DNA of 64,000 nucleotides, taken from assembly GCA_963841905.1 (NCBI GenBank), contig CAWJEM010000022.1, positions 92,835 to 156,834 of the forward strand. Reading direction: 5' to 3'. Every line of letters begins with the position of its first letter. The first letter of the stretch is position 1. The notes under the pieces were generated by a model, which saw only the letters and a program-made list of their open reading frames with translations, ran no database searches and was not told the origin of the DNA. Origin of the DNA: an uncultured Acidobacteriota bacterium. Lineage in GTDB: Bacteria; Acidobacteriota; Vicinamibacteria; Vicinamibacterales; UBA2999. The position numbers were made by a program, and so were the translations under genes. This document shows positions 2,980 through 55,593 of this stretch, piece after piece.

Positions 2980-3297
2980 GTGCCTCAAGCCGTCATCGTC
3001 CTCACTACGTTTCCCTCCGACGGGGATGCCGACGCGCTCGCGCGCAGCCTGGTGTCGGAGCGACTCGCCGCCTGCGTCAACATCCTGCCGCAGATGCACT
3101 CCATCTATCGATGGGAAGGCGCGGTCGAGACGGCGTCTGAGCGACAGCTAATCATCAAGACCGAAGAGTCTCAGCTCGAGTCGCTCAAGAAGCGGCTGAC
3201 CGCACTGCACCCGTACGACGTGCCAGAGATGTTGGTTCTCGCGGTCGCTGATGGCGGGGTCAGCTATTTGCAGTGGATCTCGGACTCGGTCGGATAG
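2980..3297 (+). CDS. cutA: Divalent-cation tolerance protein CutA
   Basis: 105 aa, VIVLTTFPSDGDADALARSLVSERLAACVNILPQMHSIYRWEGAVETASERQLIIKT...LHPYDVPEMLVL. GTG start preceded by GGTGGAGA. Confidence 0.9.
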   Translation: MPQAVIVLTTFPSDGDADALARSLVSERLAACVNILPQMHSIYRWEGAVETASERQLIIKTEESQLESLKKRLTALHPYDVPEMLVLAVADGGVSYLQWISDSVG

Positions 3298-3300
3298 ATC

Positions 3301-3383
3301 CAGCACCCACGGCACCCGCGCACCTTGAGCACAGTTGGCACCAGCACCCAGGCACCCGAGGCAGCTGAGGCACGTAAGGCACC
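3301..3383. repeat. Degenerate direct repeats of GGCACC(C)/AGCACCC
   Basis: cagcaccc acggcaccc gcgcacc ... ggcacc agcaccc aggcaccc ... aaggcacc fills the gap between convergent cutA and the PLP enzyme gene. I found no complementary arm. Confidence 0.8.
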
Positions 3384-6772: not shown

Positions 6773-7729
6773 ATGCCAGAACTGACGGTCATCTTTCGCA
6801 CCGCGTCCAACATCGAGGCCAGCATCGTGCAGGCCCTGCTCGACAGCCACGGCATCGAGTCGGTGCGCACCTCGGGTCCGCCGGCGTCGCTGTTTCCCTT
6901 CACCGTCAACCCGATGGGCGAGACGTGCGTCTCAGTGCGGGAAGACGACGGACCCGAGGCGGTGCGGATTATCGAGAGCCATCGCGAAGAGGTGAGTGGC
7001 GGTTTGGTGGTACCGCTCCCGCAGCAATTTGCCGCGCTCGAGCTGCGAATCGGGTATCGCTTTCGCGATCGCGGGCTGCTCGAACACGCTCTCACTCACA
7101 AGTCCAAGGCGCATGAAGATCCAAGCGGGGGAGTGATGGACAACGAGTCGCTCGAATTCCTGGGCGACGCGGTCCTGGGGTTGGTGATAGCCGACGCGCT
7201 GTGCCGGGTCTTCCCGCGGTCCACCGAAGGTCAGAAGTCGAAGATCAAGGCCACGATGGTGTCCACCGCGTCGCTGGCGGAGCTCGCGGAACGCTTGCAG
7301 CTCGGCGACCACATGATTCTGGGTCGCGGCGAGGAAAAGACCGGGGGGCGCCGCAAGCAGGCGCTGCTGGCCGACACCTGCGAGGCGCTCATCGCCGCGA
7401 TTTACATCGACGGGGGACTCGAACCGGCGCGTCAGTTCCTGATGCGCGAGATGGGCGAGGCGGTCGAAGCCGCTGGCCAACCCGACTACCTGGGCCGCGA
7501 CCACAAGTCGCGGCTACAGGAAGTGCTCCAGGCGCTTGGGCGTCCGCTCCCGATCTACCGCATCGCTGGTGAAGCAGGCCCCGAACACCGCAAGATGTTT
7601 CACGTCGAGGTCGTCGTGTCGGGCGAAGTCATCGCGCAGGGCGTTGGCCGCACCAAGAAGGACGCGGAGCAGGAAGCCGCGAAAACGGCCCTGCTCGGGC
7701 TGACGGGCAACGCTAACGACGCGGAGTGA
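6773..7729 (+). CDS. rnc: Ribonuclease III with an N-terminal DUF2007-like extension of about 85 aa
   Basis: C-terminal 230 aa: GYRFRDRGLLEHALTHKS...NESLEFLGDAVLGLVIAD...DTCEALIAAIYIDGG...KSRLQEVLQ...GPEHRKMFHVEVVV...GRTKKDAEQEAAKTAL. The N-terminus LTVIFRTASNIEASIVQALLDSHGIESV...CVSVREDDGPEAVRIIESH resembles DUF2007. Confidence 0.9.
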   Translation: MPELTVIFRTASNIEASIVQALLDSHGIESVRTSGPPASLFPFTVNPMGETCVSVREDDGPEAVRIIESHREEVSGGLVVPLPQQFAALELRIGYRFRDRGLLEHALTHKSKAHEDPSGGVMDNESLEFLGDAVLGLVIADALCRVFPRSTEGQKSKIKATMVSTASLAELAERLQLGDHMILGRGEEKTGGRRKQALLADTCEALIAAIYIDGGLEPARQFLMREMGEAVEAAGQPDYLGRDHKSRLQEVLQALGRPLPIYRIAGEAGPEHRKMFHVEVVVSGEVIAQGVGRTKKDAEQEAAKTALLGLTGNANDAE

Positions 7730-7736
7730 TTCGCAA

Positions 7737-7826
7737 CAGTTACAAGTTACAAGTTACGAGTTACAAGTTTGAGTTGTCAGTTTCAAGCGCTTTGAACCTG
7801 TAACTTGGAACTTGTAACTTGTAACT
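7737..7826. repeat. Heptamer array hairpin: (GTTACAA)n left arm, (TTGTAAC)n right arm
   Basis: gttacaa gttacaa gttacga gttacaa gtttgag... cgc ...ctgtaac ttggaac ttgtaac ttgtaac, between convergent rnc (stop 7729) and the ATPase gene (stop 7842). Confidence 0.9.
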
Positions 7827-13827: not shown

Positions 13828-13937
13828 GAAGTTACAAGTTACAAGTTACAAGTTCAAAGTTCAATTGAAGGAGACTACCGCAGCGCGAGCCAACTCGCGA
13901 GCGCTGTTTGGAACTTGTCACTTGTCACTTGTAACTC
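13828..13937. repeat. Heptamer array hairpin of the GTTACAA family
   Basis: gttacaa x3, gttcaaa, gttcaat ... inner small hairpin cgcgag-ccaa-ctcgcg ... ttggaac ttgtcac ttgtcac ttgtaac. Lies between the purA stop and the ABC ATPase start. Confidence 0.9.
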
Positions 13938-14967: not shown

Positions 14968-15999
14968 ATGCCTAGACATCCGCTCATCGAGCTCACGCTG
15001 GCGCGCTTCCGCGAGTTCGTTCGCGAACCGGAAGCGGTGTTCTGGTCGTTCGCGTTTCCGATCATCATGACGTGCGCGCTGGGTGTTGCGTTTCGATCGA
15101 GCACCGACGCGCCAATCATCGTCGGGGTGGCGCAGACGCAAGGTGCGGACGCCGTCACCCGTTCGCTCGAGCGCGCCGGGGGGTTCGTCGTGCGGACGAT
15201 TCCCGCTCCGGAGATTGAGCGTGCCGTCCGCGATGGCCGCGCAGCGGTCGTTGTCGAAGCCGGGCAGCCGCCCGTGTACCACTTCGATGCGGCGCGCGCA
15301 GAAAGCCAGGCGGCGCGCCTCGCCGTCGACGAAGCGCTTCAACGCGCGGCAGGCCGATCGGATGTCTTCGTGGCCGAACGTCGTCCGGTCGCGCAAATTG
15401 GTTCGCGCTACATCGACTGGCTGGTCCCGGGGTTGCTCGGGATGGGCATCATGAGCACCGGTATGTGGTCGGTGAGCTTCTCGATCGTGACCGCGCGGAC
15501 GCGCAAGCTGCTCAAGCGTCTGGTGGCAACGCCGATGTCCCGCACGCATTACCTCGCGTCGTTCGTGCTGAGCCGTCTCGTGTTTCTCGCGCTCGAGTCC
15601 GTTGTCCTTGTCGGCTTCAGCTGGCTGGTGTTCGGCGTGGCCGTGCGAGGGTCGCTCGGGACGCTCGCCGCCGTCTGCATGACTGGCGCTCTGGCGTTCG
15701 GCGGAATGGCGTTGCTGGTGTGCAGTCGCGCTCGGACCATCGAAGCCGTGTCCGGCCTGTTGAACCTCGTGATGTTGCCGATGTGGGTGCTGTCGGGAGT
15801 CTTTTTCGCGTCGACGAACTTTCCTGACGTGATGCAGCCATTCATCCAGGCGCTTCCGCTGACGGCACTCATCGACGCACTCCGCGTCATCGTGAACGAA
15901 GGATTATCGATTGCCAGCGTTGCGGGTGAGTTGGCGATTCTGTCGATCTGGGGCAGCGTGTCCTTCGTGTTGTCCTTGAAGTTGTTTCGCTGGCAATGA
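14968..15999 (+). CDS. ABC-2 type transporter permease
   Basis: 343 aa with a REPEAVFWSFAFPIIM N-terminus, a large loop, then 5 C-terminal TM segments. Follows the ATPase gene. Confidence 0.8.
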   Translation: MPRHPLIELTLARFREFVREPEAVFWSFAFPIIMTCALGVAFRSSTDAPIIVGVAQTQGADAVTRSLERAGGFVVRTIPAPEIERAVRDGRAAVVVEAGQPPVYHFDAARAESQAARLAVDEALQRAAGRSDVFVAERRPVAQIGSRYIDWLVPGLLGMGIMSTGMWSVSFSIVTARTRKLLKRLVATPMSRTHYLASFVLSRLVFLALESVVLVGFSWLVFGVAVRGSLGTLAAVCMTGALAFGGMALLVCSRARTIEAVSGLLNLVMLPMWVLSGVFFASTNFPDVMQPFIQALPLTALIDALRVIVNEGLSIASVAGELAILSIWGSVSFVLSLKLFRWQ

Positions 16000-16000
16000 C

Positions 16001-16065
16001 TGGCAGTCAGCAGCCAGCAGCCAGCAGGCAGCAGCTGGCGACCGGCAGCCGGCTGCCGGCAGCTA
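16001..16065. repeat. CAGCAGC-type heptamer array containing an 18-nt perfect palindrome
   Basis: cagcagc cagcagc cagcagg cagcagc tggcgac cggcagc cggctgc cggcagc, with ccggcagccggctgccgg at 16042-16059. It occupies the whole 66-nt gap between two convergent stop codons. Confidence 0.85.
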
Positions 16066-17322
16066 CTAGCGAAGCCCACAGAAGCGCATCGCCGTAAGTG
16101 CGAGAACTCTGGCGGTGGTCATCAGGTCGTCGATCCGGACGAATTCGTCGGGACGATGAGCGTGCCGCACGTTGCCTGGCCCGAAGAGCACTGTGGGGAC
16201 GCCGCCCTGGTTGACCAGTAGCCGCATGTCCGCGCCGTAGGTCATGGCTTCGAGTCGAGGAGGCCGGGTGGTCACGTCCGAGATTGCGCCGGCGGTCGTG
16301 GAAACGATGAGCGCCCGTTCGTCTGTCTCGGCCGGCAGGAACTGACCGCCCCACCATTCGACGGTCGGTGGATGCTCCTCGAGGTGTGGGTTTCGATGGG
16401 CGGCGCCGGACACGATCCGCTCGAACGCGATCTTGGCGTCGGCGGCATTCTCGCCCGGTGCGATTCCGAATCGCCCTTCGCAGACCAGCCGATCCGGGAC
16501 CGACGAAGGCCAGTCACCCGCACTCATCCGTCCGACCGAGAGCGCGAATGGGAGCCGGTAGCGCTCGAAGCGCGGGCTTCGCAACCGCGCGTTGCGCTCC
16601 GTTTCAAAGGCGAGCAGCGCATCGTGAATCGGCCGAAATAGCTCGATCGCGCTCACGCCCTCTTCGCGCACGCAGCCGTGTGCGGATCGACCCTGAATCC
16701 GAATACGAAATGTCAGCGCGCCGGCGTGTGACGTGGCCAGCATCAGCTCGGTCGGCTCCATCGACACGGCGCCATCACCACCGTGACCGCGAAGGAGCGT
16801 TGCCAGTGTGCCCGCACCCCCGTCTTCCTCGGCCACCACCGACTGCAGCGCGACGCGCCCGCGCAGCCTGATGCCGCACACGGCCAACGCGCGCAGTGCG
16901 GCGATTGCCGCCGCGAGCCCGCCCTTCATATCGCAGGCGCCTCGCCCAAACACGCAGCCGTCGCGTACCGTCGCCTCCCACGGGTTGGTTGTCCATTGAT
17001 CGTGATCGCCGACCGGCACGACGTCGACGTGACCGTTGAGGATCAGCGTCGCCCCGTCGCCTTCGCCGAGCGTGCCGACGACGCCGAGTCCAGTTGTGCG
17101 TGGCACCTCCATCGCAAACGCCGGATGAGTCCGAATGGCGTCGAAATCGATGGTCCAGCAGTCGAGCGTCATGCCGAGAGAGCGGAGGCAACCGGCCATC
17201 CACTCCTGAGCCGGCGATTCATCCCCGCCGAGGCTGCGGATGCCAATCAGTGCGGCGAGATCGCTCAGGAGTTGCGGCCATTCGATCGCCTCGAGGACGT
17301 GAGCTTCCAGTGCCGTCGGCAT
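16066..17322 (-). CDS. M20 family metallopeptidase (ArgE/DapE/acetylornithine deacetylase-like)
   Basis: 418 aa, LILNGHVDVVPVGDHDQWTTNPWEATVRDGCVFGRGACDMKGGLAAAIAAL...VVAEEDGGAGT...FGPGNVRHAHRPDEFV. Confidence 0.85.
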   Translation of the reverse strand: MPTALEAHVLEAIEWPQLLSDLAALIGIRSLGGDESPAQEWMAGCLRSLGMTLDCWTIDFDAIRTHPAFAMEVPRTTGLGVVGTLGEGDGATLILNGHVDVVPVGDHDQWTTNPWEATVRDGCVFGRGACDMKGGLAAAIAALRALAVCGIRLRGRVALQSVVAEEDGGAGTLATLLRGHGGDGAVSMEPTELMLATSHAGALTFRIRIQGRSAHGCVREEGVSAIELFRPIHDALLAFETERNARLRSPRFERYRLPFALSVGRMSAGDWPSSVPDRLVCEGRFGIAPGENAADAKIAFERIVSGAAHRNPHLEEHPPTVEWWGGQFLPAETDERALIVSTTAGAISDVTTRPPRLEAMTYGADMRLLVNQGGVPTVLFGPGNVRHAHRPDEFVRIDDLMTTARVLALTAMRFCGLR

Positions 17323-19789: not shown

Positions 19790-19884
19790 GCAGGGCACAG
19801 GGCGTAGGGCGTAGGGCGTAGGCGGCAGGGGATAGGGTCCCTAAGCCCCTCCCTATGCCCTACGCCCTATGCCCCATGCCCTAG
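19790..19884. repeat. Heptamer array hairpin: (GGGCGTA/GGGCACA)n and (TACGCCC/TATGCCC)n
   Basis: gcagggc acagggc gtagggc gtagggc gtaggcg gcagggg atagggt ccc | taagccc ctcccta tgcccta cgcccta tgcccca tgcccta g. The ppk stop codon (19881-19883) lies in the right arm. Confidence 0.9.
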
Positions 19885-23750: not shown

Positions 23751-24386
23751 ATGAGGCGCCCGAAAAGCCACTACCATCATGGATCGCTCCGCGCCGCCCT
23801 GATTGAGTCGACGGCGCGTCTGGTAGCAGAGAAGGGGCCGAGCGGTGTCACCCTGCGCGAGGCCGCGCGACGCGTCGGCGTGTCGGAAGCGGCGCCGTAT
23901 CAGCACTTCGCCGATAAGTCAGCGCTGCTGACCGGAGTGGCAGACGCCGGCTTCGAATTGCTTCAATTGTCGATTTCCGCAGCTCTCGAAACTGCGCCCT
24001 CCGATCCGGTGGATCGCCTCGAGGCGCTGAGCCTCGCCTATCTGCGATTCGCTCTCGATCGACCGCACTATTTCCGGCTGATGTTCGGTCGGCTGAGTGA
24101 TGCTCGTACCACGACGGCCGCCCCTGCCGTTCCGCTCTTCGACCACTTCGTCGAATCCGTTCGTGCCGCGCGTCTGAGTCACGGCCATGACGATGAGGAT
24201 TCGCTGAACGCGGCGGCGTTGCTCTGGTCCGTGCCGCACGGCTTGGCCTTGCTCTATCTCGACGGGTCGATTGACGCGGGGATTGGACCGCGCGCGCTCG
24301 AGGATCTGATACGAGCTGGCGTTCGTGCGCTGGTGGCGGCGCCGTTGCCCGAGGTCGGGAACAGCGAACCGACGTGGGGAATCTAA
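23751..24386 (+). CDS. TetR/AcrR family transcriptional regulator
   Basis: HHGSLRAALIESTARLVAEKGPSGVTLREAARRVGVSEAAPYQHFADKSALL is the TetR HTH signature. Confidence 0.9.
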   Translation: MRRPKSHYHHGSLRAALIESTARLVAEKGPSGVTLREAARRVGVSEAAPYQHFADKSALLTGVADAGFELLQLSISAALETAPSDPVDRLEALSLAYLRFALDRPHYFRLMFGRLSDARTTTAAPAVPLFDHFVESVRAARLSHGHDDEDSLNAAALLWSVPHGLALLYLDGSIDAGIGPRALEDLIRAGVRALVAAPLPEVGNSEPTWGI

Positions 24387-24455
24387 AGCACGGAAACACG
24401 GAACATCGGAAGTGTCGTTTTGTGCCTACTGTGGCTTCCGCCTTAAGGCGGAAGC
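24387..24455. repeat. CACGGAA heptamer array followed by the hairpin GCTTCCGCC-TTAA-GGCGGAAGC
   Basis: agcacggaa acacggaa catcggaag directly after the TetR stop, then a 9-bp perfect stem at 24434-24455 whose arms match the unit (CGGAAG/CTTCCG). Confidence 0.8.
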
Positions 24456-24618
24456 TACGCGTGGTTCGCTTTGCGGCCCAGGTGGCTCCGCGATCGCAAT
24501 TTTGAAGTAGCGGCGCTGCACTCGCGTGCGACAAAGGCGAATGATCAAACCCAGGGTTTCGGACGAAGCCGTACAGCGCGCAACTGGACGGGCTTGGGCT
24601 GAATGGTGCCGGCTGCTT

Positions 24619-24806
24619 TAGTCAGTGATCAGTGATCGGTGATCCGGTGATCCGTGATCAGTTAACGACTGACCACGGACCACCGACCACCGACCGGACC
24701 ACGACCGACCACTGACCACCGACCACCTGACCACGGACCACCGACCACTGACCACCGGACCACGGACCACTGACCACTGACCAGGGACCACCGACCTAGT
24801 CAGTGA
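24619..24806. repeat. GTGATCA/GACCAC(C/T/G) array: about 42-nt left arm and about 130-nt right arm
   Basis: gtcagtgatcagtgatcggtgatccggtgatccgtgatcag ttaac gactgaccacggaccaccgaccaccgacc...(about 18 units). TAGTCAGTGA occurs at both ends (24619-24628 and 24797-24806, the latter overlapping the TauE stop). Confidence 0.85.
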
Positions 24807-25542
24807 GCCACAAAAGGACCGCGAATACGATCACCGTCACGGTGACGACGCCTTCGAGCCATTTGTGTCCGCGGAGGACCGCGAGTCGGACACCCACCAC
24901 ACCTCCGACAAGGTTGCCAACTCCCAGCGCGATGCCAGTCGGCCAGTCGACGTTGCCGGTACCGGCAAAGACGGCCAGAGACAAGAGCGTCAGCAGCGAC
25001 ATCGCGAAGACCTTGACCGCATTGCCTCGCACGAGGTCGAGACCCGCGAGGTTGGTCATCGCCAGGGTGAGAAAGCCTACACCTGCCTGAAGGAAACCAC
25101 CGTAGAGCCCGACCACGAAAAATCCCAGGACCATCGTCCAGTGCCAGGGACTGCGGGTCGGTGACGGCTTCTCGGCAGAGATCGAGTGCCGGAAGAGCGT
25201 CGAGAGGGTCATTGCCAGCATAACGATCGACAGGATGCGACGAAACGCGATGTCCGGCACTCTCAGTGCGCCCCACACACCGATGCCAGCGCCCAACAAC
25301 GCCGGCGTGCTGACCGCCAGCGCCCATCGCCAATCGAGAACGCGGTGTCGATGAAAGCCCCAGGCGGCTGCGACGTTCTGGGTCACGATGCCCACGCGGT
25401 TGGTGCCGTTTGCGACCGATGCCGGCAATCCGAGAAAGAGCAGGAGCGGCAGGGTCAGAAAGGAACCGCCGGCAGCGAGAACGTTGATCACGCCGGCGAT
25501 GAATCCAATCACGACACAGGCAAGAAACGCGACGGGTGACAC
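24796..25542 (-). CDS. TauE/SafE (DUF81) family sulfite/anion exporter
   Basis: 248 aa, polytopic. VINVLAAGGSFLTLPLLLFLGLPASVANGTNRVGIV... and a second repeat half. Confidence 0.85.
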   Translation of the reverse strand: MSPVAFLACVVIGFIAGVINVLAAGGSFLTLPLLLFLGLPASVANGTNRVGIVTQNVAAAWGFHRHRVLDWRWALAVSTPALLGAGIGVWGALRVPDIAFRRILSIVMLAMTLSTLFRHSISAEKPSPTRSPWHWTMVLGFFVVGLYGGFLQAGVGFLTLAMTNLAGLDLVRGNAVKVFAMSLLTLLSLAVFAGTGNVDWPTGIALGVGNLVGGVVGVRLAVLRGHKWLEGVVTVTVIVFAVLLWLTD

Positions 25543-30390: not shown

Positions 30391-31362
<972 letters not shown>

Positions 31363-31367
31363 CTACG

Positions 31368-32693
31368 ATGTCATCCACCACTCTGACCCGAGCCATCGGT
31401 CTCCCTCAGGCCACCGCGATCGTCGTCGGCATCATCATCGGTGCCTCGGTCTTCGTGCAGGCGTCCGAGATCACGGCGCGCGTGCCGTCGTTGTGGGGCG
31501 TCACGCTGGCGTGGGTCACCGCGGGACTGCTGACGATGGGCGGGGCGCTCGTCTGTGCTGAGCTGTCATCGGCGATGCCACGAACCGGCGGCGTCTATGT
31601 GTTCCTGAAAGAGGCGTTTTCGCCGGCGCTCGGCTTCCTGTGGGGCTGGGCGATGTTCTGGAGCATGCACACCGGCATCGCAGCGGCGATCGCCACGGTG
31701 TTTGCGCGCTACGCCGGCTACTTCGTGCCGATGGGCGATGCCGCGCTGCGAGCGACGGCGGCGGGAGCGATCGTCGTCCTCTCGGTTGTCAACTATCTCG
31801 GTGTCCGGTTCGGCAGCGGAGTGCAGACGGCCTTCACGATCGTGAAAGTCGTTGCGGTGGCGGCCATCATCGCTGCCGGAGCGCTCCTTGATCCCGCCGG
31901 GACATCGCCGGTTGGCGCGGCTGCGGGGCCGCCCGACTACGGCGGCGGTGACTTCCTGCTTGCGGTTGGCGCCGGGCTGTTTGCCTTTGGCGGTTGGCAC
32001 ATGGTCACCTACACCGCCGAAGAGACCAAGGATCCAGAACGTACGATTCCCAGGTCTCTGGTGTACGGCACCATCATCGTGACGCTCTGCTATGTCGGAT
32101 TGAATATCGTTTATCTGTCGGTGCTGTCGATTGAGCGCGTGATCGCGTCCTCGCGCGTGGCCGCGGATACGTTCGAGGCGCTCGTGGGTCCCGTCGGTGG
32201 GAGCCTGGTGTCGGGACTGGTCATGTTCTCGGCGTTCGGGGCGCTGAACGGCGTCATCCTGGCCGGCCCGCGCGTCTACTACTCGATGGCGCAGGATGGC
32301 CTGCTGTTCAAGTGGGCGGCGGCGATTCACCCGACGTATCGAACACCTGGCCGCGCCATCCTGTTGCAAGGGTTGTGGGCGGTGGTCCTCGTCTTGACCG
32401 GCACTTATCGCGAGCTGTTCACACGGGTGATCTACACCGAGTGGATCTTCTTCGGCATGCTCGCACTCGGGGTCGTGGCCCTGCGCCGGCGGGCCGATTA
32501 CCGGCCGGCATGGCGGATGCCGGGAGTTCCCGTCATTCCCATCGTGTTTGCGTTGGTCTCGTTCGCAATTGCCGCGAACCAGATCCGCGTTGATCCGATC
32601 AACAGTGCCATCGGGCTGGTCCTGGTGATAATCGGGCTGCCGGTCTATTGGTGGTGGGTACGCGCGCGCCGCGTACCGCTTGGAGTGGCGTGA
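31368..32693 (+). CDS. APC-superfamily amino acid permease
   Basis: 441 aa, 12 TM. IVVGIIIGASVFVQ...CAELSSAMPRTGGVYVFLKEAF...GGWHMVTYTAEETKDPERTIPRSL. Confidence 0.9.
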   Translation: MSSTTLTRAIGLPQATAIVVGIIIGASVFVQASEITARVPSLWGVTLAWVTAGLLTMGGALVCAELSSAMPRTGGVYVFLKEAFSPALGFLWGWAMFWSMHTGIAAAIATVFARYAGYFVPMGDAALRATAAGAIVVLSVVNYLGVRFGSGVQTAFTIVKVVAVAAIIAAGALLDPAGTSPVGAAAGPPDYGGGDFLLAVGAGLFAFGGWHMVTYTAEETKDPERTIPRSLVYGTIIVTLCYVGLNIVYLSVLSIERVIASSRVAADTFEALVGPVGGSLVSGLVMFSAFGALNGVILAGPRVYYSMAQDGLLFKWAAAIHPTYRTPGRAILLQGLWAVVLVLTGTYRELFTRVIYTEWIFFGMLALGVVALRRRADYRPAWRMPGVPVIPIVFALVSFAIAANQIRVDPINSAIGLVLVIIGLPVYWWWVRARRVPLGVA

Positions 32694-32723
32694 CAAGGTC
32701 CGGCGACTGGCAGGGAGGTTCGA

Positions 32724-33068
32724 GTGAGACACGAGACCGCCGAACAGGCCATTCTGGCGCAGGAGCGCCGTGCGCTGGACCAATGGTCACAGGGCAAACC
32801 ACTGGGGTATGTAGCGAACGTCGCCGAGGATGTCACGTACTTCGACGACATTGGCGCGCACTCGCGAGTCGTCGGTCGTGAAGCCGTCACGACCTACTTC
32901 GCTTCACTCCAAGGAAAGATCGGAATCCTGACCCTGCACTATCTCACGTTCGCGCCAGACGGATCTCCGCTGACGCCGTGGAAAGCCACGCTGGTCTATC
33001 GTTTGATTGCCGGAGAGTGGCGCACGGTCCACGCGCACTGGTCGATTCTCAGGCAGCCCTCGCCATGA
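32724..33068 (+). CDS. NTF2-like / DUF4440 (SnoaL-like) small protein
   Basis: 114 aa. ERRALDQWSQGKPLGYVANVAEDVTYFDD...WKATLVYRLIAGEWRTVHAHWS. GTG start behind AGGGAGG. ATGA overlap with the next gene. Confidence 0.6.
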   Translation: MRHETAEQAILAQERRALDQWSQGKPLGYVANVAEDVTYFDDIGAHSRVVGREAVTTYFASLQGKIGILTLHYLTFAPDGSPLTPWKATLVYRLIAGEWRTVHAHWSILRQPSP

Positions 33069-36145: not shown

Positions 36146-36208
36146 CTGACCACTGATCACGGACCACGGACCACGGATCACGGATCACTGATCACGTGAT
36201 CACTGACC
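36146..36208. repeat. GATCACG/GACCACG heptamer array ending in the palindrome TGATCACGTGATCA
   Basis: ctgaccactgatcac ggaccac ggaccac ggatcac ggatcac tgatcac gtgatcac tgacc, 13 nt after the GNAT stop. Confidence 0.85.
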
Positions 36209-36419
36209 TTCATGAACACACTCGCGCGCACGGCGGCACCCGACTATCGTGCCTCGATGGCATCGCCCACGACCGCCGAGCAAACGATCGCCCGCTTTCG
36301 GGACAAGCCGCTCGACTTCGTCCACCAAGCGCTAGCGAGGCTCCGCCTCGGACCGTCAAGCATGTGCGATGCGGCTCCGCCTCGCTAGGGCAGTGTTTGC
36401 TTGCCCGCCTCCGGCGGGC

Positions 36420-36485
36420 AGACGTCTTGAAGGCAGTGCGGAGAAGCTTGACTCGTTTGCACGGGTTATGGTCTTCAAGACGTCT
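36420..36485. promoter_or_regulatory. 13-bp perfect inverted repeat AGACGTCTTGAAG-N40-CTTCAAGACGTCT upstream of the amidase gene
   Basis: Arms at 36420-36432 and 36473-36485; the amidase ATG is at 36527. Confidence 0.4.
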
Positions 36486-36526
36486 AGAACGTCAGTGGGC
36501 GTGTGCTTCACGTAAGATAGGGCGCG

Positions 36527-40671: not shown

Positions 40672-42582
40672 ATGCTGTGGCGCATGTCGTTGTCTCGTGG
40701 CGTTCTGACGATCACCGTCTGCGCAATGACGCTCACGCCGGAGATCTTGGGCCAGTCCCGACCACGCGTGCCGAATGCTCCGTCCATTGCGGCTTACGAT
40801 CCAACCGAGCGATCGATCGATGATCTGCAACGAGCGATGCAGACCGGGGTGGTCACGTCACGCCAGCTCGTTGACAGCTACCTGGCACGAATCGACGCTT
40901 ACGATCAACAGGGCCCGGCGCTGAACGCCATCGTTGCCGTCAATCCTCGCGCGCGCGAGATTGCGGATGGACTGGACGGCGAACGACGCAGCAAGGGCGC
41001 CCGGGGACCGCTGCACGGCATCCCGGTGCTGGTCAAGGACAACTATGAAACCGTGGAGATGCCGACCAGTGCCGGCTCGATCGCGCTGGCCACGTTTCAT
41101 CCGGCGCGCGACGCGCATCTCGTCAAGCGACTCAGGGAGGCGGGGGCGGTCATTCTCGGCAAGACCAACATGCACGAGCTCGCGGCCGGGATCACGACCG
41201 TTGGGTCACGTTTCGGGCAGACCCTGAACCCTTACGACCTCGACCGCAATGCCGGCGGTTCGAGTGGTGGAACAGGCGCCGCGGTCGCCGCCAGCTTCGC
41301 GGCCGGGGGCATGGGCAGTGACACTTGTGGATCGATTCGAAACCCCGCCTCGCACAACAATCTCGTCGGGCTGCGCGGCACGCAAGGCCTCTCCAGTCGG
41401 GCTGGCATCGTCCCGCTGTCGAGCACGCAGGATATCGGCGGACCGATTGCGCGCTCGATCGACGACCTGGCAATCATGCTGGATGCAACGGTCGGCGCCG
41501 ATCCGTCGGATCCGCAGACGGCGATCGGTGCCGGGCACATTCCGGCGTCATATCGCGCGCTTCTTCGTGCTGACGCATTGAAGGGCGCCCGCATTGGTGT
41601 CGTTCGTAGCCTCTTTGGGTCCGCCACCGAAGATCAGGAGGTGACTCGCGTCGTCCAGGGCGCGCTCGATGCGCTCAAGAAGGCGGGCGTCGAGGTCATC
41701 GACACGCCAATTCCTGGCCTCGACGATTTGTTGCGGGACAGCTCGATGATCAATTCGGACTTCAAGTTCGATCTCGCCGAGTATCTCGGCCGCGATCCGT
41801 CAGCGCCAGTGAAGTCCCTGGGTGAGATTCTCGATCGCGGGCTGTATCACACCGCGCTGGAGGCCAATTTTCGCACTCGCAACGCCGTCGAACACCGGGA
41901 GAGCGATCTATCACGCCGGGCGAGGATCAAACGAACGGCGATACGTGGCGCTGTCGAAGCCGTCTTGGACGAGCATCAGCTCACGGCGGTCGTGTATCCC
42001 ACGCTACGTCGTAAACCAGCGCGGATAGGCGATGGGCAAGGGGGAACGAATTGCCAGGTCAGTTCCCACTCCGGTTTGCCGGCGCTCGGATTGCCGGCGG
42101 GGTTCAGCGAAGACGGCCTGCCGGTTGGCATGGACCTGCTCGGCCGGACGTTTGGCGAAGCCGACTTGCTTGCGCTTGGCTTTGCGATCGAGCAGACGGT
42201 GAAGCTCCGGCGGCCGCCGTTCAGCACGCCGCCCTTGATTGACGGCAAGGCGCCGGCAATTCGGATAACGAACATTACCTCCCAGGGTGCGACCGTCAAC
42301 CTGTCGTTCAACGACACGACATCCAGGTTGCACTACGTGATCAAGCTCGAAGATCCCGTACGGGAGAGGCTGGCGGCCATTTGGCTTCACACCGGGAGTC
42401 CGGACAAGCCCGGTGCCGCCAGACATCAACTGTTTGCGGTCGGCCGCCCTCAGGATGGCGTCGTCACGCTGTCGGCGCAGGATCGCCGCGATCTCGCCGA
42501 GGGTCGATTGCTCGTTCGCTTTTACGTCGACAGCGTGAAGGGGAGTAGCGGCGATGTGCCGGTGCGATTTGAATGGCGATAA
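40672..42582 (+). CDS. Secreted amidase (amidase-signature family) with a C-terminal extension of about 130 aa
   Basis: MLWRMSLSRGVLTITVCAMT (signal). GPLHGIPVLVKDNYET...GGSSGGTGAAVAASFAAGGMGSDTCGSIRNPA. The track ORF 40168.. has a spurious 5' extension antisense to the hydrolase. Confidence 0.9.
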   Translation: MLWRMSLSRGVLTITVCAMTLTPEILGQSRPRVPNAPSIAAYDPTERSIDDLQRAMQTGVVTSRQLVDSYLARIDAYDQQGPALNAIVAVNPRAREIADGLDGERRSKGARGPLHGIPVLVKDNYETVEMPTSAGSIALATFHPARDAHLVKRLREAGAVILGKTNMHELAAGITTVGSRFGQTLNPYDLDRNAGGSSGGTGAAVAASFAAGGMGSDTCGSIRNPASHNNLVGLRGTQGLSSRAGIVPLSSTQDIGGPIARSIDDLAIMLDATVGADPSDPQTAIGAGHIPASYRALLRADALKGARIGVVRSLFGSATEDQEVTRVVQGALDALKKAGVEVIDTPIPGLDDLLRDSSMINSDFKFDLAEYLGRDPSAPVKSLGEILDRGLYHTALEANFRTRNAVEHRESDLSRRARIKRTAIRGAVEAVLDEHQLTAVVYPTLRRKPARIGDGQGGTNCQVSSHSGLPALGLPAGFSEDGLPVGMDLLGRTFGEADLLALGFAIEQTVKLRRPPFSTPPLIDGKAPAIRITNITSQGATVNLSFNDTTSRLHYVIKLEDPVRERLAAIWLHTGSPDKPGAARHQLFAVGRPQDGVVTLSAQDRRDLAEGRLLVRFYVDSVKGSSGDVPVRFEWR

Positions 42583-42583
42583 C

Positions 42584-42700
42584 GGTTACAAGGGCGCAGG
42601 GCGTAGGGCATAGGGCACAGGGAGGGCGTAGGGCACAGGCGAAGGCCCATTTCCCCCCTCCCGCCCGGTGTTCTGTTCCCTGTTCCCTGTATCTGTAACT
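42584..42700. repeat. Heptamer array, chimeric GTTACA + GGGCNNA units, with a partly complementary right arm
   Basis: ggttaca agggcgc agggcgt agggcat agggcac agggagg gcgtagg gcacagg ... ctgttcc ctgttcc ctgtatc tgtaact. Confidence 0.85.
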
Positions 42701-45700: not shown

Positions 45701-46045
45701 GTTCCGCAAGTTCAAGGTTGGCACCCTGGTCGGGCAGCGCACCTGGGGCGGCTTGGTGGGTGTGTTGGGATTCCCCATCCTGATGGACGGTGGATCGATT
45801 ACCGCTCCGAATCTGGCGATCTGGACGCCCGAGGAAGGATGGGTGGTTGAAAACGAGGGCGTTCCGCCTGACGTGGAAGTCGAGCAGACACCGAAGGACG
45901 TGATTGCCGGTCGCGATCCGCAACTCGAGCGCGCCATCGCGATTGCGCTCGAAGACCTGAAGAAGAGCCCGCCGACGCGCCCGGCACGACCAGCGTTTCC
46001 CGTGCGCGGAAAGACACTACGGGGAACGGCGCCGACGGGAGGTGA
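42718..46045 (+). pseudogene. Tricorn-type protease (TolB-like beta-propellers + S41 peptidase), at least 4 frame breaks; 3' end uncertain
   Basis: Three overlapping track ORFs (42718..43716, 42965..44197, 44040..46292) join into one tricorn-like protein: ...YSPDARRIAYNP...QWKQYRGGTVSRIWLYD...FRSDRDGEFNLY / YESGSQRVQRLTNH...SWSPDGTRIAYVSD...RWSPDSKQIAYTDN / YGWSPDSRWLAYT...FNGGGQIADYYID...TAGSGGDLLPWMFR. A hidden frame at 42840-42881 encodes HVAFIYADDLWVAT. Confidence 0.85.
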
Positions 46046-46047
46046 GT

Positions 46048-46119
46048 GCAGGGCACAGGGCACGGGGCGCAGGGCGGGGGCCGCAGTCCTACGCCCTGGG
46101 CCCCAGGCCCTATGCCCTG
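46048..46119. repeat. Heptamer array hairpin of the GGGCACA/GGGCGCA family
   Basis: gcagggc acagggc acggggc gcagggc ggggg ccgcagt cctacgc cctgggc cccaggc cctatgc cctg, between the tricorn 3' end and the peroxiredoxin stop (46127). Confidence 0.9.
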
Positions 46120-46126
46120 TCGCGCT

Positions 46127-46813
46127 TCACCCTCTAGGCTGCGGCACGATCCGCAGGTACGGCTTCGGCGCTTTCCAGCCGTTGGGATATTTCTCCTTGG
46201 CTTCCGCATCGCTGACTGCCGTCAGGATGATCACATCGTCGCCATCCTTCCAGTTCACCGGTGTGGCCACCTTGTGCTTTGCAGTCAGCTGAATCGAATC
46301 GATGACCCGCAGGACTTCATCGAAGTTGCGCCCCGTACTCATCGGATACGAGATGACGAGCTTGACCTTCTTGTCCGGACCGATCACGTAGACGTTGCGA
46401 ACGGTCGCGTTGTCGACGGCGGTCCGACCTTCGGAGCTGTCTCCCGCCGTGGCGGGCAGCATTCCGTACAGCTTGGAGATCTTCAGCTCGGGATCGCCAA
46501 TCATCGGATAGTTGGGCGCAGTCCCCTGCGTTTCGGCAATGTCCTTGGACCAGCCCTCGTGCTTGTCGACCGGATCGACGCTGAGCCCGATGACTTTGAC
46601 GTTGCGCTTGTCGAATTCCGGCTTGATCCGCGCCATGTAGCCGAGCTCGGTTGTACAGACGGGCGTGAAGTCTTTCGGATGCGAAAACAGAACGCCCCAG
46701 GAATTGCCGAGCCATTCGTGAAAACGAATCGGACCCTGGGTGGTGTTGGCTTCGAAGTCTGGCGCGTCGGCGCCTATGGCGAGCGGGCCATTCGTTGCGA
46801 GCGAGGGGGCCAT
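46127..46813 (-). CDS. 1-Cys peroxiredoxin (Prx6 family)
   Basis: APDFEANTTQGPIRFHEWLGNSWGVLFSHPKDFTPVCTTELG...GLSVDPVDKHEGW...NYPMIGD...RNFDEVLRVIDSLQ-like region. Confidence 0.95.
   Translation of the reverse strand: MAPSLATNGPLAIGADAPDFEANTTQGPIRFHEWLGNSWGVLFSHPKDFTPVCTTELGYMARIKPEFDKRNVKVIGLSVDPVDKHEGWSKDIAETQGTAPNYPMIGDPELKISKLYGMLPATAGDSSEGRTAVDNATVRNVYVIGPDKKVKLVISYPMSTGRNFDEVLRVIDSIQLTAKHKVATPVNWKDGDDVIILTAVSDAEAKEKYPNGWKAPKPYLRIVPQPRG

Positions 46814-55467: not shown

Positions 55468-55593
<126 letters not shown>

What the first reader, a model, noticed from the sequence alone, without database searches (positions are those of the whole stretch)
24619..24806. Strongly asymmetric GTGATCA / GACCACC array flanked by a 10-bp direct repeat
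The left arm is about 42 nt and the right arm about 130 nt (about 18 units). The arms are complementary only if A-C positions are read as G-U on the minus-strand RNA, which is the strand of the adjacent TauE gene. TAGTCAGTGA occurs at both outer ends (24619-28 and 24797-806), and the second copy covers the TauE stop and last codons. This could be a target-site duplication of an inserted element, or the seed from which the array expanded.
Basis: partly seen in the sequence, partly recalled or inferred. Interest (0 to 1): 0.6.

Follow-up and report, generated by a model that had tools for sequence, protein, structure and literature searches.

The report
Lopsided heptamer-repeat hairpin after TauE
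The lopsided repeat block behind the TauE gene is a real, gene-less copy of a repeat-armed hairpin element that fills hundreds of gene gaps in this soil acidobacterium, and its matching 10-base ends are a by-product of the nearly palindromic repeat unit and a nearby deletion, not the footprint of an insertion.

Summary
The array has a 41-nt GTGATCN arm, a 5-nt loop and a 126-nt GACCACN arm. TAGTCAGTGA lies at both outer ends, and the minus-strand RNA folds much better than the plus strand (-124.5 against -83.6 kcal/mol).

The target-site-duplication reading fails for three reasons:
- A sister genome (G005, flanks 97.5% identical) has the same hairpin, short and nearly symmetric. Its left copy of the 10-mer matches only 9/10 and lies inside repeat units.
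- In our genome the left copy sits on the junction of a ~450-bp deletion that removed the neighbouring gene.
- Across 299 such hairpins, flanking direct repeats are no longer than in mismatched controls.

The G-U strand preference is not a rule (89 against 68 hairpins, p=0.11).

The array belongs to a GTGRTCN family of about 50 loci. These abut stop codons and always have the same arm order. A copy with the same arms encloses a four-helix-bundle (PF05635) gene, intact in G005 and decayed here. So this is a gene-less hairpin of the cassette type known from 23S rRNA intervening sequences.

The asymmetry reflects a net difference of about 88 nt in one arm between the two lineages.

This scan has already reported the same element class on other DNA.

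The parts
24541..24621 (+). Remnant of a neighbouring AHSA1/SRPBCC-like gene: 26 codons (MIKPRVSDEAVQRATGRAWAEWCRLL) followed by a TAG stop
   Evidence: The gene is about 180 aa and intact in G008 and G001, and frameshifted in G005. About 450 bp of it is missing here. The G008 copy matches Pfam AHSA1.
24619..24628 (+). Left copy of TAGTCAGTGA. It consists of the TAG stop of the gene remnant plus the first repeat unit, and it lies on the deletion junction.
   Evidence: Here the sequence reads GGCTGCTT|TA|GTCAGTGA; in G005 it reads ...GTCAGTG|GTCAGTGA.
24622..24662 (.). Short arm: about 6 units of GTGATCN (TRF unit TCAGTGA)
24663..24667 (.). Loop TAACG, inside the palindrome TCAGT-TAACG-ACTGA (24658-24672). 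There is no room for a gene.
24668..24796 (.). Long arm: about 18 units of GACCACN, the complement of GTGGTC. Its last base is the first base of the TauE stop codon.
   Evidence: The arm is about 88 nt longer than in G005. TRF also reports 29-nt and 36-nt periods, which points to multi-unit duplications.
24797..24806 (+). Right copy of TAGTCAGTGA, lying in the native last codons of TauE (L-T-D) and two bases of its stop codon
   Evidence: The C-terminus is conserved in relatives that have no array.
24796..25542 (-). TauE/SafE-family membrane protein gene. The hairpin starts directly after its stop codon.
   Evidence: Pfam PF01925, 4.2e-41

Best explanation
What it is: a gene-less ('hairpin-only') copy of a dispersed element whose two arms are inverted tandem arrays of a 7-nt unit, here (G)TGATCA / (G)TGGTCA. 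Full copies of the same design enclose a small four-helix-bundle gene (PF05635, the '23S rRNA intervening-sequence protein', an Avd relative).

History (inferred from comparisons):
- The element settled between the convergent stop codons of TauE and an AHSA1-like gene. This happened after the split from G001 and G008 and before the split from G005.
- Since then one arm has come to differ by about 88 nt between the two lineages, probably by slippage or unequal exchange of multi-unit blocks. That is the cause of the asymmetry.
- The already decaying neighbour gene lost about 450 bp up to the edge of the other arm.

The 10-mer: it is incidental. Eight bases are the repeat unit. That unit is almost its own reverse complement (TCA-N-TGA), so it happens to resemble TauE's last codons read in the same direction. 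The other two bases come from the deletion junction.

The A/G difference between the arms is one transition that each arm has made uniform among its own units. It yields G-U pairs on TauE-sense RNA, but there is no evidence that this was selected.

Likely action (inferred, not shown): when transcribed as the TauE 3' tail, the stem of about 40 bp is a double-stranded RNA. It could act as a 3' barrier or as an RNase III substrate, as shown for intervening sequences. Equally, the element may be selfish and neutral.
For: Same element in G005:
- G005 has the hairpin at the same site with the same loop (TTAAC) and the same A/G arm difference, but about 6 + 4 units.
- G001 and G008 have no array at this site.

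Family behaviour in this genome:
- 75 GTGRTC/GAYCAC arms lie at about 50 loci.
- In 48 of 51 cases the arm next to a stop codon reads GTGRTC in gene sense, typically 'TGA TCAGTGATCAG'.
- The unit places stop codons in all three frames on both strands.
- Arm order is fixed within each family: 297 against 2 across all families, and 14 of 14 for this one.

Link to the four-helix-bundle gene:
- The genome has 13 PF05635 matches, and at least 7 are bracketed by inverted arrays of the main families.
- C20:57086-57611 has GTGATCA arms, lies between convergent stop codons and holds a decayed PF05635 gene.
- Its G005 orthologue is intact and resembles XCC0516, PDB 2GSC, at 1.8e-24.

Position and flanks:
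- Array edges lie a median of 5 nt from gene 3' ends.
- There is no excess of flanking direct repeats.

Published parallels:
- The Coxiella intervening sequence has a stem of inverted repeats, heptamer repeats of variable number and an S23p gene, and is cut by RNase III (PMC4990558).
- Xanthomonas GGGAATC heptamer pairs lie in convergent orientation at or over stop codons (PMC4692102).
- An rnc gene (RNase III) is present in this genome.
Against: - This copy has no gene, and no internal cassette sequence is left, so descent from a full cassette is inferred from shared arms, arm order and position only.
- The direction of the length change (growth here or shrinkage in G005) cannot be fixed without an outgroup that carries the array.
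Transcription, RNase III cutting and any function are therefore untested.
- There is no U-tract after the stem.
- Both genomes are metagenome assemblies. Repeat lengths, and the G005 frameshift, could contain assembly errors.
Confidence: 0.78

Rival explanations
1. The 10-mer is a target-site duplication made when a transposable hairpin element inserted into the end of TauE.
For: There is an exact 10/10 direct match at both outer ends. Matches this long were not seen in 5,963 mismatched control pairs. The array is absent from G001 and G008.
Against: - In G005 the left copy matches 9/10 and is part of the repeat units and of the neighbour gene's coding tail.
- In our genome it lies on a later ~450-bp deletion junction.
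- The class shows no flanking repeats (4.08 against 4.05).
- The only other 10-nt case also has a palindromic-core unit.
- For contrast, G005 carries a terminal-inverted-repeat (MITE-like) insert 400 bp away, bounded by CTAG on both sides. That is what an insertion footprint looks like here.
Confidence: 0.04
2. The array grew in place from a local seed, namely the small palindrome formed by the two convergent stop regions, without any mobile cassette. TauE's last codons are that seed.
For: - G001 has GACTGA-tg-TCAGTC exactly between the two stop codons.
- TauE's CACTGAC is the complement of the adjacent unit GTCNGTG.
- Other sites show a minimal state against an expanded state. The window has an expanded array at 13835-13924 where G005 has one unit per arm, and another at 36148-36208 where G005 has 1.5 units.
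- In G003, the array unit TTGGGTGA matches TauE codons TGGGTGA.
Against: - The same unit family with the same arm order occurs at about 50 unrelated loci. Independent local origins would be expected to give both arm orders.
- At several sites the two genomes carry entirely different families between flanks that are 95-97% identical, which in-place growth cannot produce.
- The minimal states may equally be collapsed arrays.
Confidence: 0.12
3. The hairpin is a strand-specific functional RNA in the TauE 3' untranslated region, and the G-U pairs are kept by selection on that transcript.
For: The minus strand folds 34-41 kcal/mol better than the plus strand, and the same bias is present in G005. 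The arm abuts the TauE stop codon.
Against: - The bias comes from one transition per arm that has spread through all units, so it is effectively a single event with a 50% chance of favouring either strand.
- Genome-wide, sense against antisense is 89:68 (p=0.11).
- In this family, same-direction loci with arm mismatches go 1 sense to 3 antisense.
- There is no Rfam match above threshold and no terminator tail.
Confidence: 0.1
4. The extreme arm asymmetry is an assembly error in a repeat region of a metagenome-assembled genome.
For: The genome is a 24-contig assembly. Repeats of 7-nt units spanning 126 nt are hard to assemble, and no reads could be examined.
Against: The long arm carries many distinct unit variants in a non-periodic order, which is not what a collapsed or inflated assembly gives. 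Nine other hairpins in the genome are at least as asymmetric.
Confidence: 0.06

Closest known systems
23S rRNA intervening sequences that carry an S23p/PF05635 gene (Coxiella burnetii, Leptospira; PMC4990558)
   Same: Both have terminal inverted repeats that form a long stem, heptamer direct repeats of variable copy number, and a small four-helix-bundle gene inside. In this genome the same gene family sits between arms of the same families, including GTGATCA arms at C20:57086-57611.
   Different: This copy lies between protein-coding genes, not in rRNA. It has no gene in its 5-nt loop, and its arms are far longer arrays. RNase III cutting is shown for the intervening sequences but is untested here.
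Xanthomonas GGGAATC and Nostoc GGGGAYT heptamer repeats (Rehm et al. 2015, PMC4692102)
   Same: Both are 7-nt tandem repeats, often as convergent (inverted) pairs. They lie within 50 bp of a stop codon or overlap it, with the G-rich arm first, and their length differs between related strains.
   Different: The unit is different and cannot form a G-quadruplex. That paper does not link the repeats to PF05635 genes.
TAACTGA direct repeats of Beggiatoaceae and cyanobacteria (PMC4679880), and cyanobacterial short tandemly repeated repetitive (STRR) heptamers
   Same: Both are 7-nt units that give stop codons in all three frames, so they can overlap a gene's end by only a few codons. Both are intergenic and numerous.
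   Different: Those repeats are mostly single direct arrays upstream of start codons. Here the arrays are inverted pairs that abut stop codons.
REP/REPIN elements with their RAYT transposase
   Same: Both are dispersed intergenic palindromes, and their non-autonomous copies far outnumber the gene-bearing ones.
   Different: This genome has a separate family of that kind (GGCTTCCGCC hairpins, 91 copies) next to a Y1-transposase-like gene. The present array does not share its sequence or its single-stem build.

Membership tests
Heptamer-armed hairpin cassette (PF05635 / intervening-sequence-like element) | Two inverted arms, each a tandem array of a 7-nt unit | tested here: met
   TRF finds 5.7 and 17.6 copies of complementary units.
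Heptamer-armed hairpin cassette (PF05635 / intervening-sequence-like element) | Fixed arm order for the family (5' arm GTGRTCN, 3' arm NGAYCAC) | tested here: met
   14 of 14 pairs of this family, and 297 against 2 over all families. This copy conforms.
Heptamer-armed hairpin cassette (PF05635 / intervening-sequence-like element) | Arms abut or overlap the stop codons of the flanking genes | tested here: met
   The long arm ends on the TauE stop codon. In G005 the other arm encodes the neighbour gene's last codons (VSGQ-stop). For the family, 48 of 51 arms follow this pattern.
Heptamer-armed hairpin cassette (PF05635 / intervening-sequence-like element) | A four-helix-bundle (PF05635) gene between the arms | tested here: not met
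   The loop is 5 nt. The gene is present in another copy with the same arms (own C20, decayed; G005, intact). This copy therefore ranks as a gene-less derivative, not a full member.
Heptamer-armed hairpin cassette (PF05635 / intervening-sequence-like element) | The RNA stem is cut by RNase III | not testable with these tools
   An rnc gene is present.
Transposon or MITE with target-site duplication | A direct duplication of the target flanks each copy, and the empty site holds one copy | tested here: not met
   The 10-mer here is explained by the unit plus a deletion junction. The class shows no excess of flanking repeats. The empty sites in G001 and G008 show abutting genes, but are too diverged to align base by base.
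Intrinsic (Rho-independent) terminator | A short G+C-rich stem followed by a run of U | tested here: not met
   No terminator-like site lies at the array on either strand. No T-run follows either arm.
REP/REPIN (RAYT-associated) | A conserved short palindrome shared with the copies that flank a RAYT gene | tested here: not met
   The RAYT-like gene at C4:161880-162389 is flanked by AGGCGGAAGCCAC repeats, a different family.
Any Rfam RNA family | A match at or above the family's gathering score | tested here: not met
   Only generic hairpin matches appear, far below threshold (best 32 bits against a gathering score of 95).

The most novel reading that the evidence does not exclude
The heptamer-armed hairpins, this one included, may be non-autonomous copies that are moved, exchanged or rebuilt by a mechanism depending on the Avd-like four-helix-bundle protein carried by the full cassettes. 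That mechanism would aim at the first base after a stop codon. This would explain three observations:
- Arm order is fixed within each family (297:2).
- Two genomes with 95-97% identical genes carry unrelated families at the same sites.
- A cassette interior is inverted between the two genomes.
Probability: 0.2. Interest if true: 0.75.

Novelty: new member of a known kind. Interest (0 to 1): 0.35.

Why it matters
By itself this locus is an ordinary copy of an abundant element, and the proposed insertion footprint is not real.

Its value lies in the comparison with G005, which catches the element at three stages at one site:
- absent (G001, G008);
- short and symmetric (G005);
- expanded on one arm, with an adjacent gene deletion (this genome).

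The same pair of genomes also shows whole-family replacement at other sites and inversion of a cassette interior. Together they form a natural series for asking how bacterial heptamer repeats arise and turn over, and what the S23p/Avd-like four-helix-bundle protein does. As far as the papers I could search show, both questions are still open.

Tried and rejected
- Target-site duplication: rejected from the G005 comparison and a genome-wide test of flanking repeats.
- Selection for G-U pairs on the sense RNA: the genome-wide test (89:68, p=0.11) and the family-level count give no support.
- Intrinsic terminator: no U-tract.
- Known RNA family: nothing above threshold.
- REP/RAYT membership: the RAYT-like gene goes with a different repeat family.
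- Closer relatives: the metagenome and genome-collection scans returned only relatives with 67-75% protein identity, plus G005 itself. No third near-identical allele was available to fix the direction of the arm-length change or the history of the TA dinucleotide at the junction.
- Stop-codon preference: TGA stops are modestly enriched next to family arms (32/48 against 52% genome-wide, p=0.04). Part of this arises from how open reading frames end inside the array, so I do not rely on it.
- Published link between heptamer arrays and PF05635: my literature searches found nothing beyond the Coxiella intervening sequence.

Full report
**1. The observation**

- Tandem Repeats Finder (TRF) reports a 7-nt array at 24622-24662 (unit TCAGTGA, that is GTGATCN; 5.7 copies). 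It reports a second at 24671-24796 (unit GACCACG, 17.6 copies).
- The two arrays meet at the palindrome TCAGT-TAACG-ACTGA (24658-24672).
- TAGTCAGTGA occurs exactly twice in the window, at 24619-24628 and 24797-24806.
- The open reading frame 24796..25542 on the minus strand is a TauE/SafE protein (PF01925, 4e-41). It ends W-L-T-D-TAG, so the right 10-mer lies in its last codons and stop codon.
- GTGATC against GACCAC leaves one A-C mismatch per unit on the plus strand and one G-U pair per unit on the minus strand. The minus-strand RNA folds to -124.5 kcal/mol (z -9.8) and the plus strand to -83.6 (z -5.6).

**2. The genome**

The window is contig C22:92835-156834 of a 5.58-Mb, 63.5% G+C assembly in 24 contigs. 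Relatives are labelled Vicinamibacterales / Acidobacteriota metagenome-assembled genomes. Earlier notes of this scan had already described hundreds of hypervariable 7-8-nt repeat hairpins in this same genome. I re-derived the class independently:
- A crude gene call gave 3,944 genes.
- TRF plus a test for complementary units gave 299 inverted array pairs.
- Within that set, this locus ranks 10th for arm asymmetry and sits at the 99th percentile for the energy difference between strands. It is unusual in shape but not in kind.

**3. The orthologous site in relatives**

G005 has a TauE 98% identical in protein and flanks 97.5% identical in DNA. It carries the same hairpin at the same place, with the same TTAAC loop and the same A/G difference between the arms, but it is short and nearly symmetric. 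Read in TauE sense:

...CTCACTGAC TAG GTCGGTG GTCGTG GTCGGTG GTCGGTG GTCCGTG GTCAGTGA TTAAC TGATCACC GATCACT GATCACT GACCACT GAC GAAGG...

- The arm next to TauE is about 43 nt in G005 and about 131 nt here. The far arm is about 32 nt in G005 and about 40 nt here.
- The part of our long arm nearest the loop aligns with the whole G005 arm. The excess is about 88 nt.
- TRF also detects 29-nt and 36-nt periods in our long arm, which suggests duplication of blocks of several units.
- G001 (73% protein identity) has no array. There the TauE stop codon is followed 6 nt later by the stop codon of a convergent gene of about 180 aa.
- In G008 (79%) the two genes overlap by about 11 nt.
- G003 and one metagenome contig carry unrelated arrays (ATTGGTG, AATGCCN) at the same TauE end.

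So an element entered this gap in the common ancestor of our genome and G005. Other lineages acquired other families at the same site.

**4. The 10-mer**

In G005 the far arm runs into the convergent gene, whose G008 copy is AHSA1/SRPBCC-like. Its last codons, V-S-G-Q-stop, are encoded by repeat units GTC AGT GGT CAG TGA. The counterpart of the left 10-mer there is TGGTCAGTGA, a 9/10 match that lies wholly inside units.

In our genome about 450 bp of that gene are missing (G005 locus L002, about 2326-2777). Homology resumes at AAGCAGCCGGCACC. Only 26 codons of the gene remain (24541-24621). The junction reads GGCTGCTT|TA|GTCAGTGA. The gene is frameshifted in G005, so it may already have been decaying, unless that frameshift is an assembly error.

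The left 10-mer is therefore eight bases of repeat unit plus two bases created at or after a lineage-specific deletion.

The right 10-mer is native coding sequence. The TauE C-terminus is W-[LVI]-[TG]-[DEG]-stop in every relative, with or without an array.

The two can match in direct orientation because the unit TCA-N-TGA is its own reverse complement except for the middle base. The only other hairpin in the genome with a 10-nt direct match at its ends also has a palindromic-core unit (TGGCCA).

Across all 299 hairpins, the longest direct match between the two ends averages 4.08 nt, against 4.05 nt for mismatched pairs. The class has no insertion footprint.

G005 offers a contrast only 400 bp away. 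It has an insert of about 165 bp with 25-bp terminal inverted repeats, bounded by CTAG on both sides, where our genome has a single TTAG.

**5. The G-U reading**

The strand bias is real and is shared with G005 (-63.0 against -38.7 kcal/mol). But it stems from a single transition that each arm has spread through its own units, so it counts as roughly one event.
- In gaps between same-direction genes, the sense strand is the more stable one in 89 hairpins and the antisense strand in 68 (p=0.11).
- In this unit family, loci with perfect, G-T and A-C arm combinations all occur. The few same-direction cases go 1 sense to 3 antisense.

I therefore do not treat the G-U pattern as evidence of selection on RNA.

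**6. The unit family**

Clusters of the hexamers GTG[AG]TC or GA[TC]CAC give 75 arms at about 50 loci.
- In 48 of the 51 arms that lie within 25 nt of a gene's 3' end, the gene-sense reading is GTGRTC. Usually the stop codon itself is the first unit ('TGA TCAGTGATCAG'). Sometimes one to three units are translated before an in-frame TGA.
- The unit puts a stop codon in every frame on both strands. The same point was made for TAACTGA repeats (PMC4679880).
- For all families, array edges lie a median of 5 nt from gene 3' ends.

**7. Arm order**

A hairpin with unit u in its 5' arm reads the same on the other strand, so 'u first' and 'complement of u first' are two distinct objects. Across all families the genome holds 297 of one order and 2 of the other. 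Examples are 64/64, 62/62, 33/33 and 18/18, and 14/14 for this family. The 5' arm tends to be the purine-rich or G-rich one (182 against 49; G>C in 133 against 37). Rehm et al. saw the same for Xanthomonas GGGAATC pairs (PMC4692102). Independent local births would be expected to give both orders, so the fixed order points to copying from founders or to a directional mechanism.

**8. The link to a gene**

Notes from other genomes in this scan claim that such hairpins are empty forms of a cassette carrying a PF05635 four-helix-bundle gene. I tested that claim here.
- The genome has 13 PF05635 matches, 10 of them above Pfam's cut-off.
- At least seven are bracketed by inverted arrays of the main families: AGGGCAT, AGGGCGT, AGTTACA, GGTTCCAA, the 13-mer GGTTCTTCACGAG, GCACNNGT and GATCAGT.
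- The GATCAGT case, C20:57086-57611, lies between convergent stop codons, just like the TauE locus. Its arms are TGA-TCAGTGATCAGTGATC... and ...GATCACTGATCACTGATTAG, and its gene is frameshifted.
- Its G005 orthologue is intact (128 aa) and matches Xanthomonas XCC0516 (PDB 2GSC) at 1.8e-24. That protein is the pentameric four-helix-bundle relative of the Avd protein of diversity-generating retroelements (PMC10053308).
- The interior of this cassette is inverted between the two genomes while the flanks stay collinear.

The TauE array shares unit, arm order and placement with this cassette but has only a 5-nt loop. I therefore file it as a gene-less derivative.

**9. Turnover**

I aligned the window with 80 kb of G005. 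Genes are 94-97% identical, and nearly every break in the alignment is at an array.
- Some sites keep the family but change length.
- Some are filled in one genome and minimal in the other. At 13835-13924, G005 has one unit per arm. At 36148-36208, where our genome has the same unit family as a single arm, G005 has 1.5 units. At 3299-3379, G005 has no array.
- At least five sites hold unrelated families in the two genomes (15995, 19794, 31206, 42581, 46039).
- Elsewhere, a full cassette in G005 is matched by a gene-less hairpin of a different family here.

These elements therefore change far faster than point substitution, and not only by slippage.

**10. Mechanism, and what is shown against what is inferred**

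Shown:
- The anatomy of the array.
- Family membership by unit, arm order and placement.
- Absence of the array from more distant relatives.
- The one-arm length difference and the adjacent deletion relative to G005.
- The absence of an insertion footprint across the class.

Inferred:
- Descent from a gene-bearing cassette.
- Slippage or unequal exchange as the cause of the long arm.

Inferred by analogy only: if transcribed with TauE, the stem of about 40 bp would be an RNase III substrate or a barrier to 3' exonucleases. RNase III cutting is demonstrated for the Coxiella intervening sequence (PMC4990558), and an rnc gene lies in this very window (about 7070-7453). There is no U-tract, so it is not a classical terminator, and no Rfam family matches.

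**11. Verdict**

However, the 10-mer is not an insertion footprint, the G-U bias is not a rule, and the element class is already described, both in part of the literature and repeatedly by this scan. It is a new member of a known kind, of moderate to low interest by itself. Its value lies in the own-versus-G005 comparison and in the fixed arm order I found across the genome.

Noticed in passing
whole genome G000 (for example window 7738-7826, 19799-19883, 55468-55593): Within each repeat family the order of the two hairpin arms is fixed: 297 against 2 over 299 hairpins. The 5' arm is usually the purine-rich or G-rich one (182 against 49).
   Followed up: partly
G000 C20:57086-57611 and G005 C1 (L045 1381-2060): A PF05635 cassette with GTGATCA arms lies between convergent genes. 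It is intact in G005 and frameshifted here. Its interior is inverted between the two genomes while the flanks stay collinear (87% identity on the opposite strand).
   Followed up: partly
window 15995-16079, 19794-19882, 31206-31368, 42581-42688, 46039-46137, compared with G005 C8: The same intergenic sites hold hairpins of entirely different unit families in two genomes whose flanking genes are 94-97% identical. At G000 C24:527774-528010, a gene-less GTGCCTN hairpin replaces a full GAGTTCN cassette of G005 (L050).
   Followed up: partly
window 36148-36208: A single-arm array of the same family, (GATCACN/GACCACN) x8, lies after a plus-strand gene. G005 has only GACCACTGACC (1.5 units) at this site. 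It is one of the 3 family arms in the unusual orientation.
   Followed up: partly
window 24434-24455: GCTTCCGCCTTAAGGCGGAAGC is one of 91 copies of a separate REP-like palindrome (CTTCCGCC...GGCGGAAG). A Y1-transposase (RAYT-like) gene at G000 C4:161880-162389 is flanked by AGGCGGAAGCCAC repeats.
   Followed up: partly
G005 L002 about 3010-3175 (between the TetR stop codon and the CACGGAA array); the empty site in the window is about 24386-24392: G005 has an insert of about 165 bp with 25-bp terminal inverted repeats (CTAGCAGCCCGTGRTGAAACGCCCG), bounded by CTAG on both sides. Our genome has a single TTAG there. It looks like a MITE with a 4-bp duplication.
   Followed up: no
window 32673-33066 and 36209-36495, compared with G005: There are larger gene-content differences close to arrays. 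Our genome has a 392-nt stretch where G005 has 47 nt. Our genome has 338 nt where G005 has 1,075 nt, and the G005 stretch appears to hold a coding sequence missing from our genome, which I did not identify.
   Followed up: no
L004 (G003), TauE 3' end: The ATTGGTG/TTGGGTGA array that follows TauE in G003 has a unit matching TauE's own codons TGG GTG A, 8 nt upstream of the array. This is a second case of a gene end resembling the adjacent unit.
   Followed up: no
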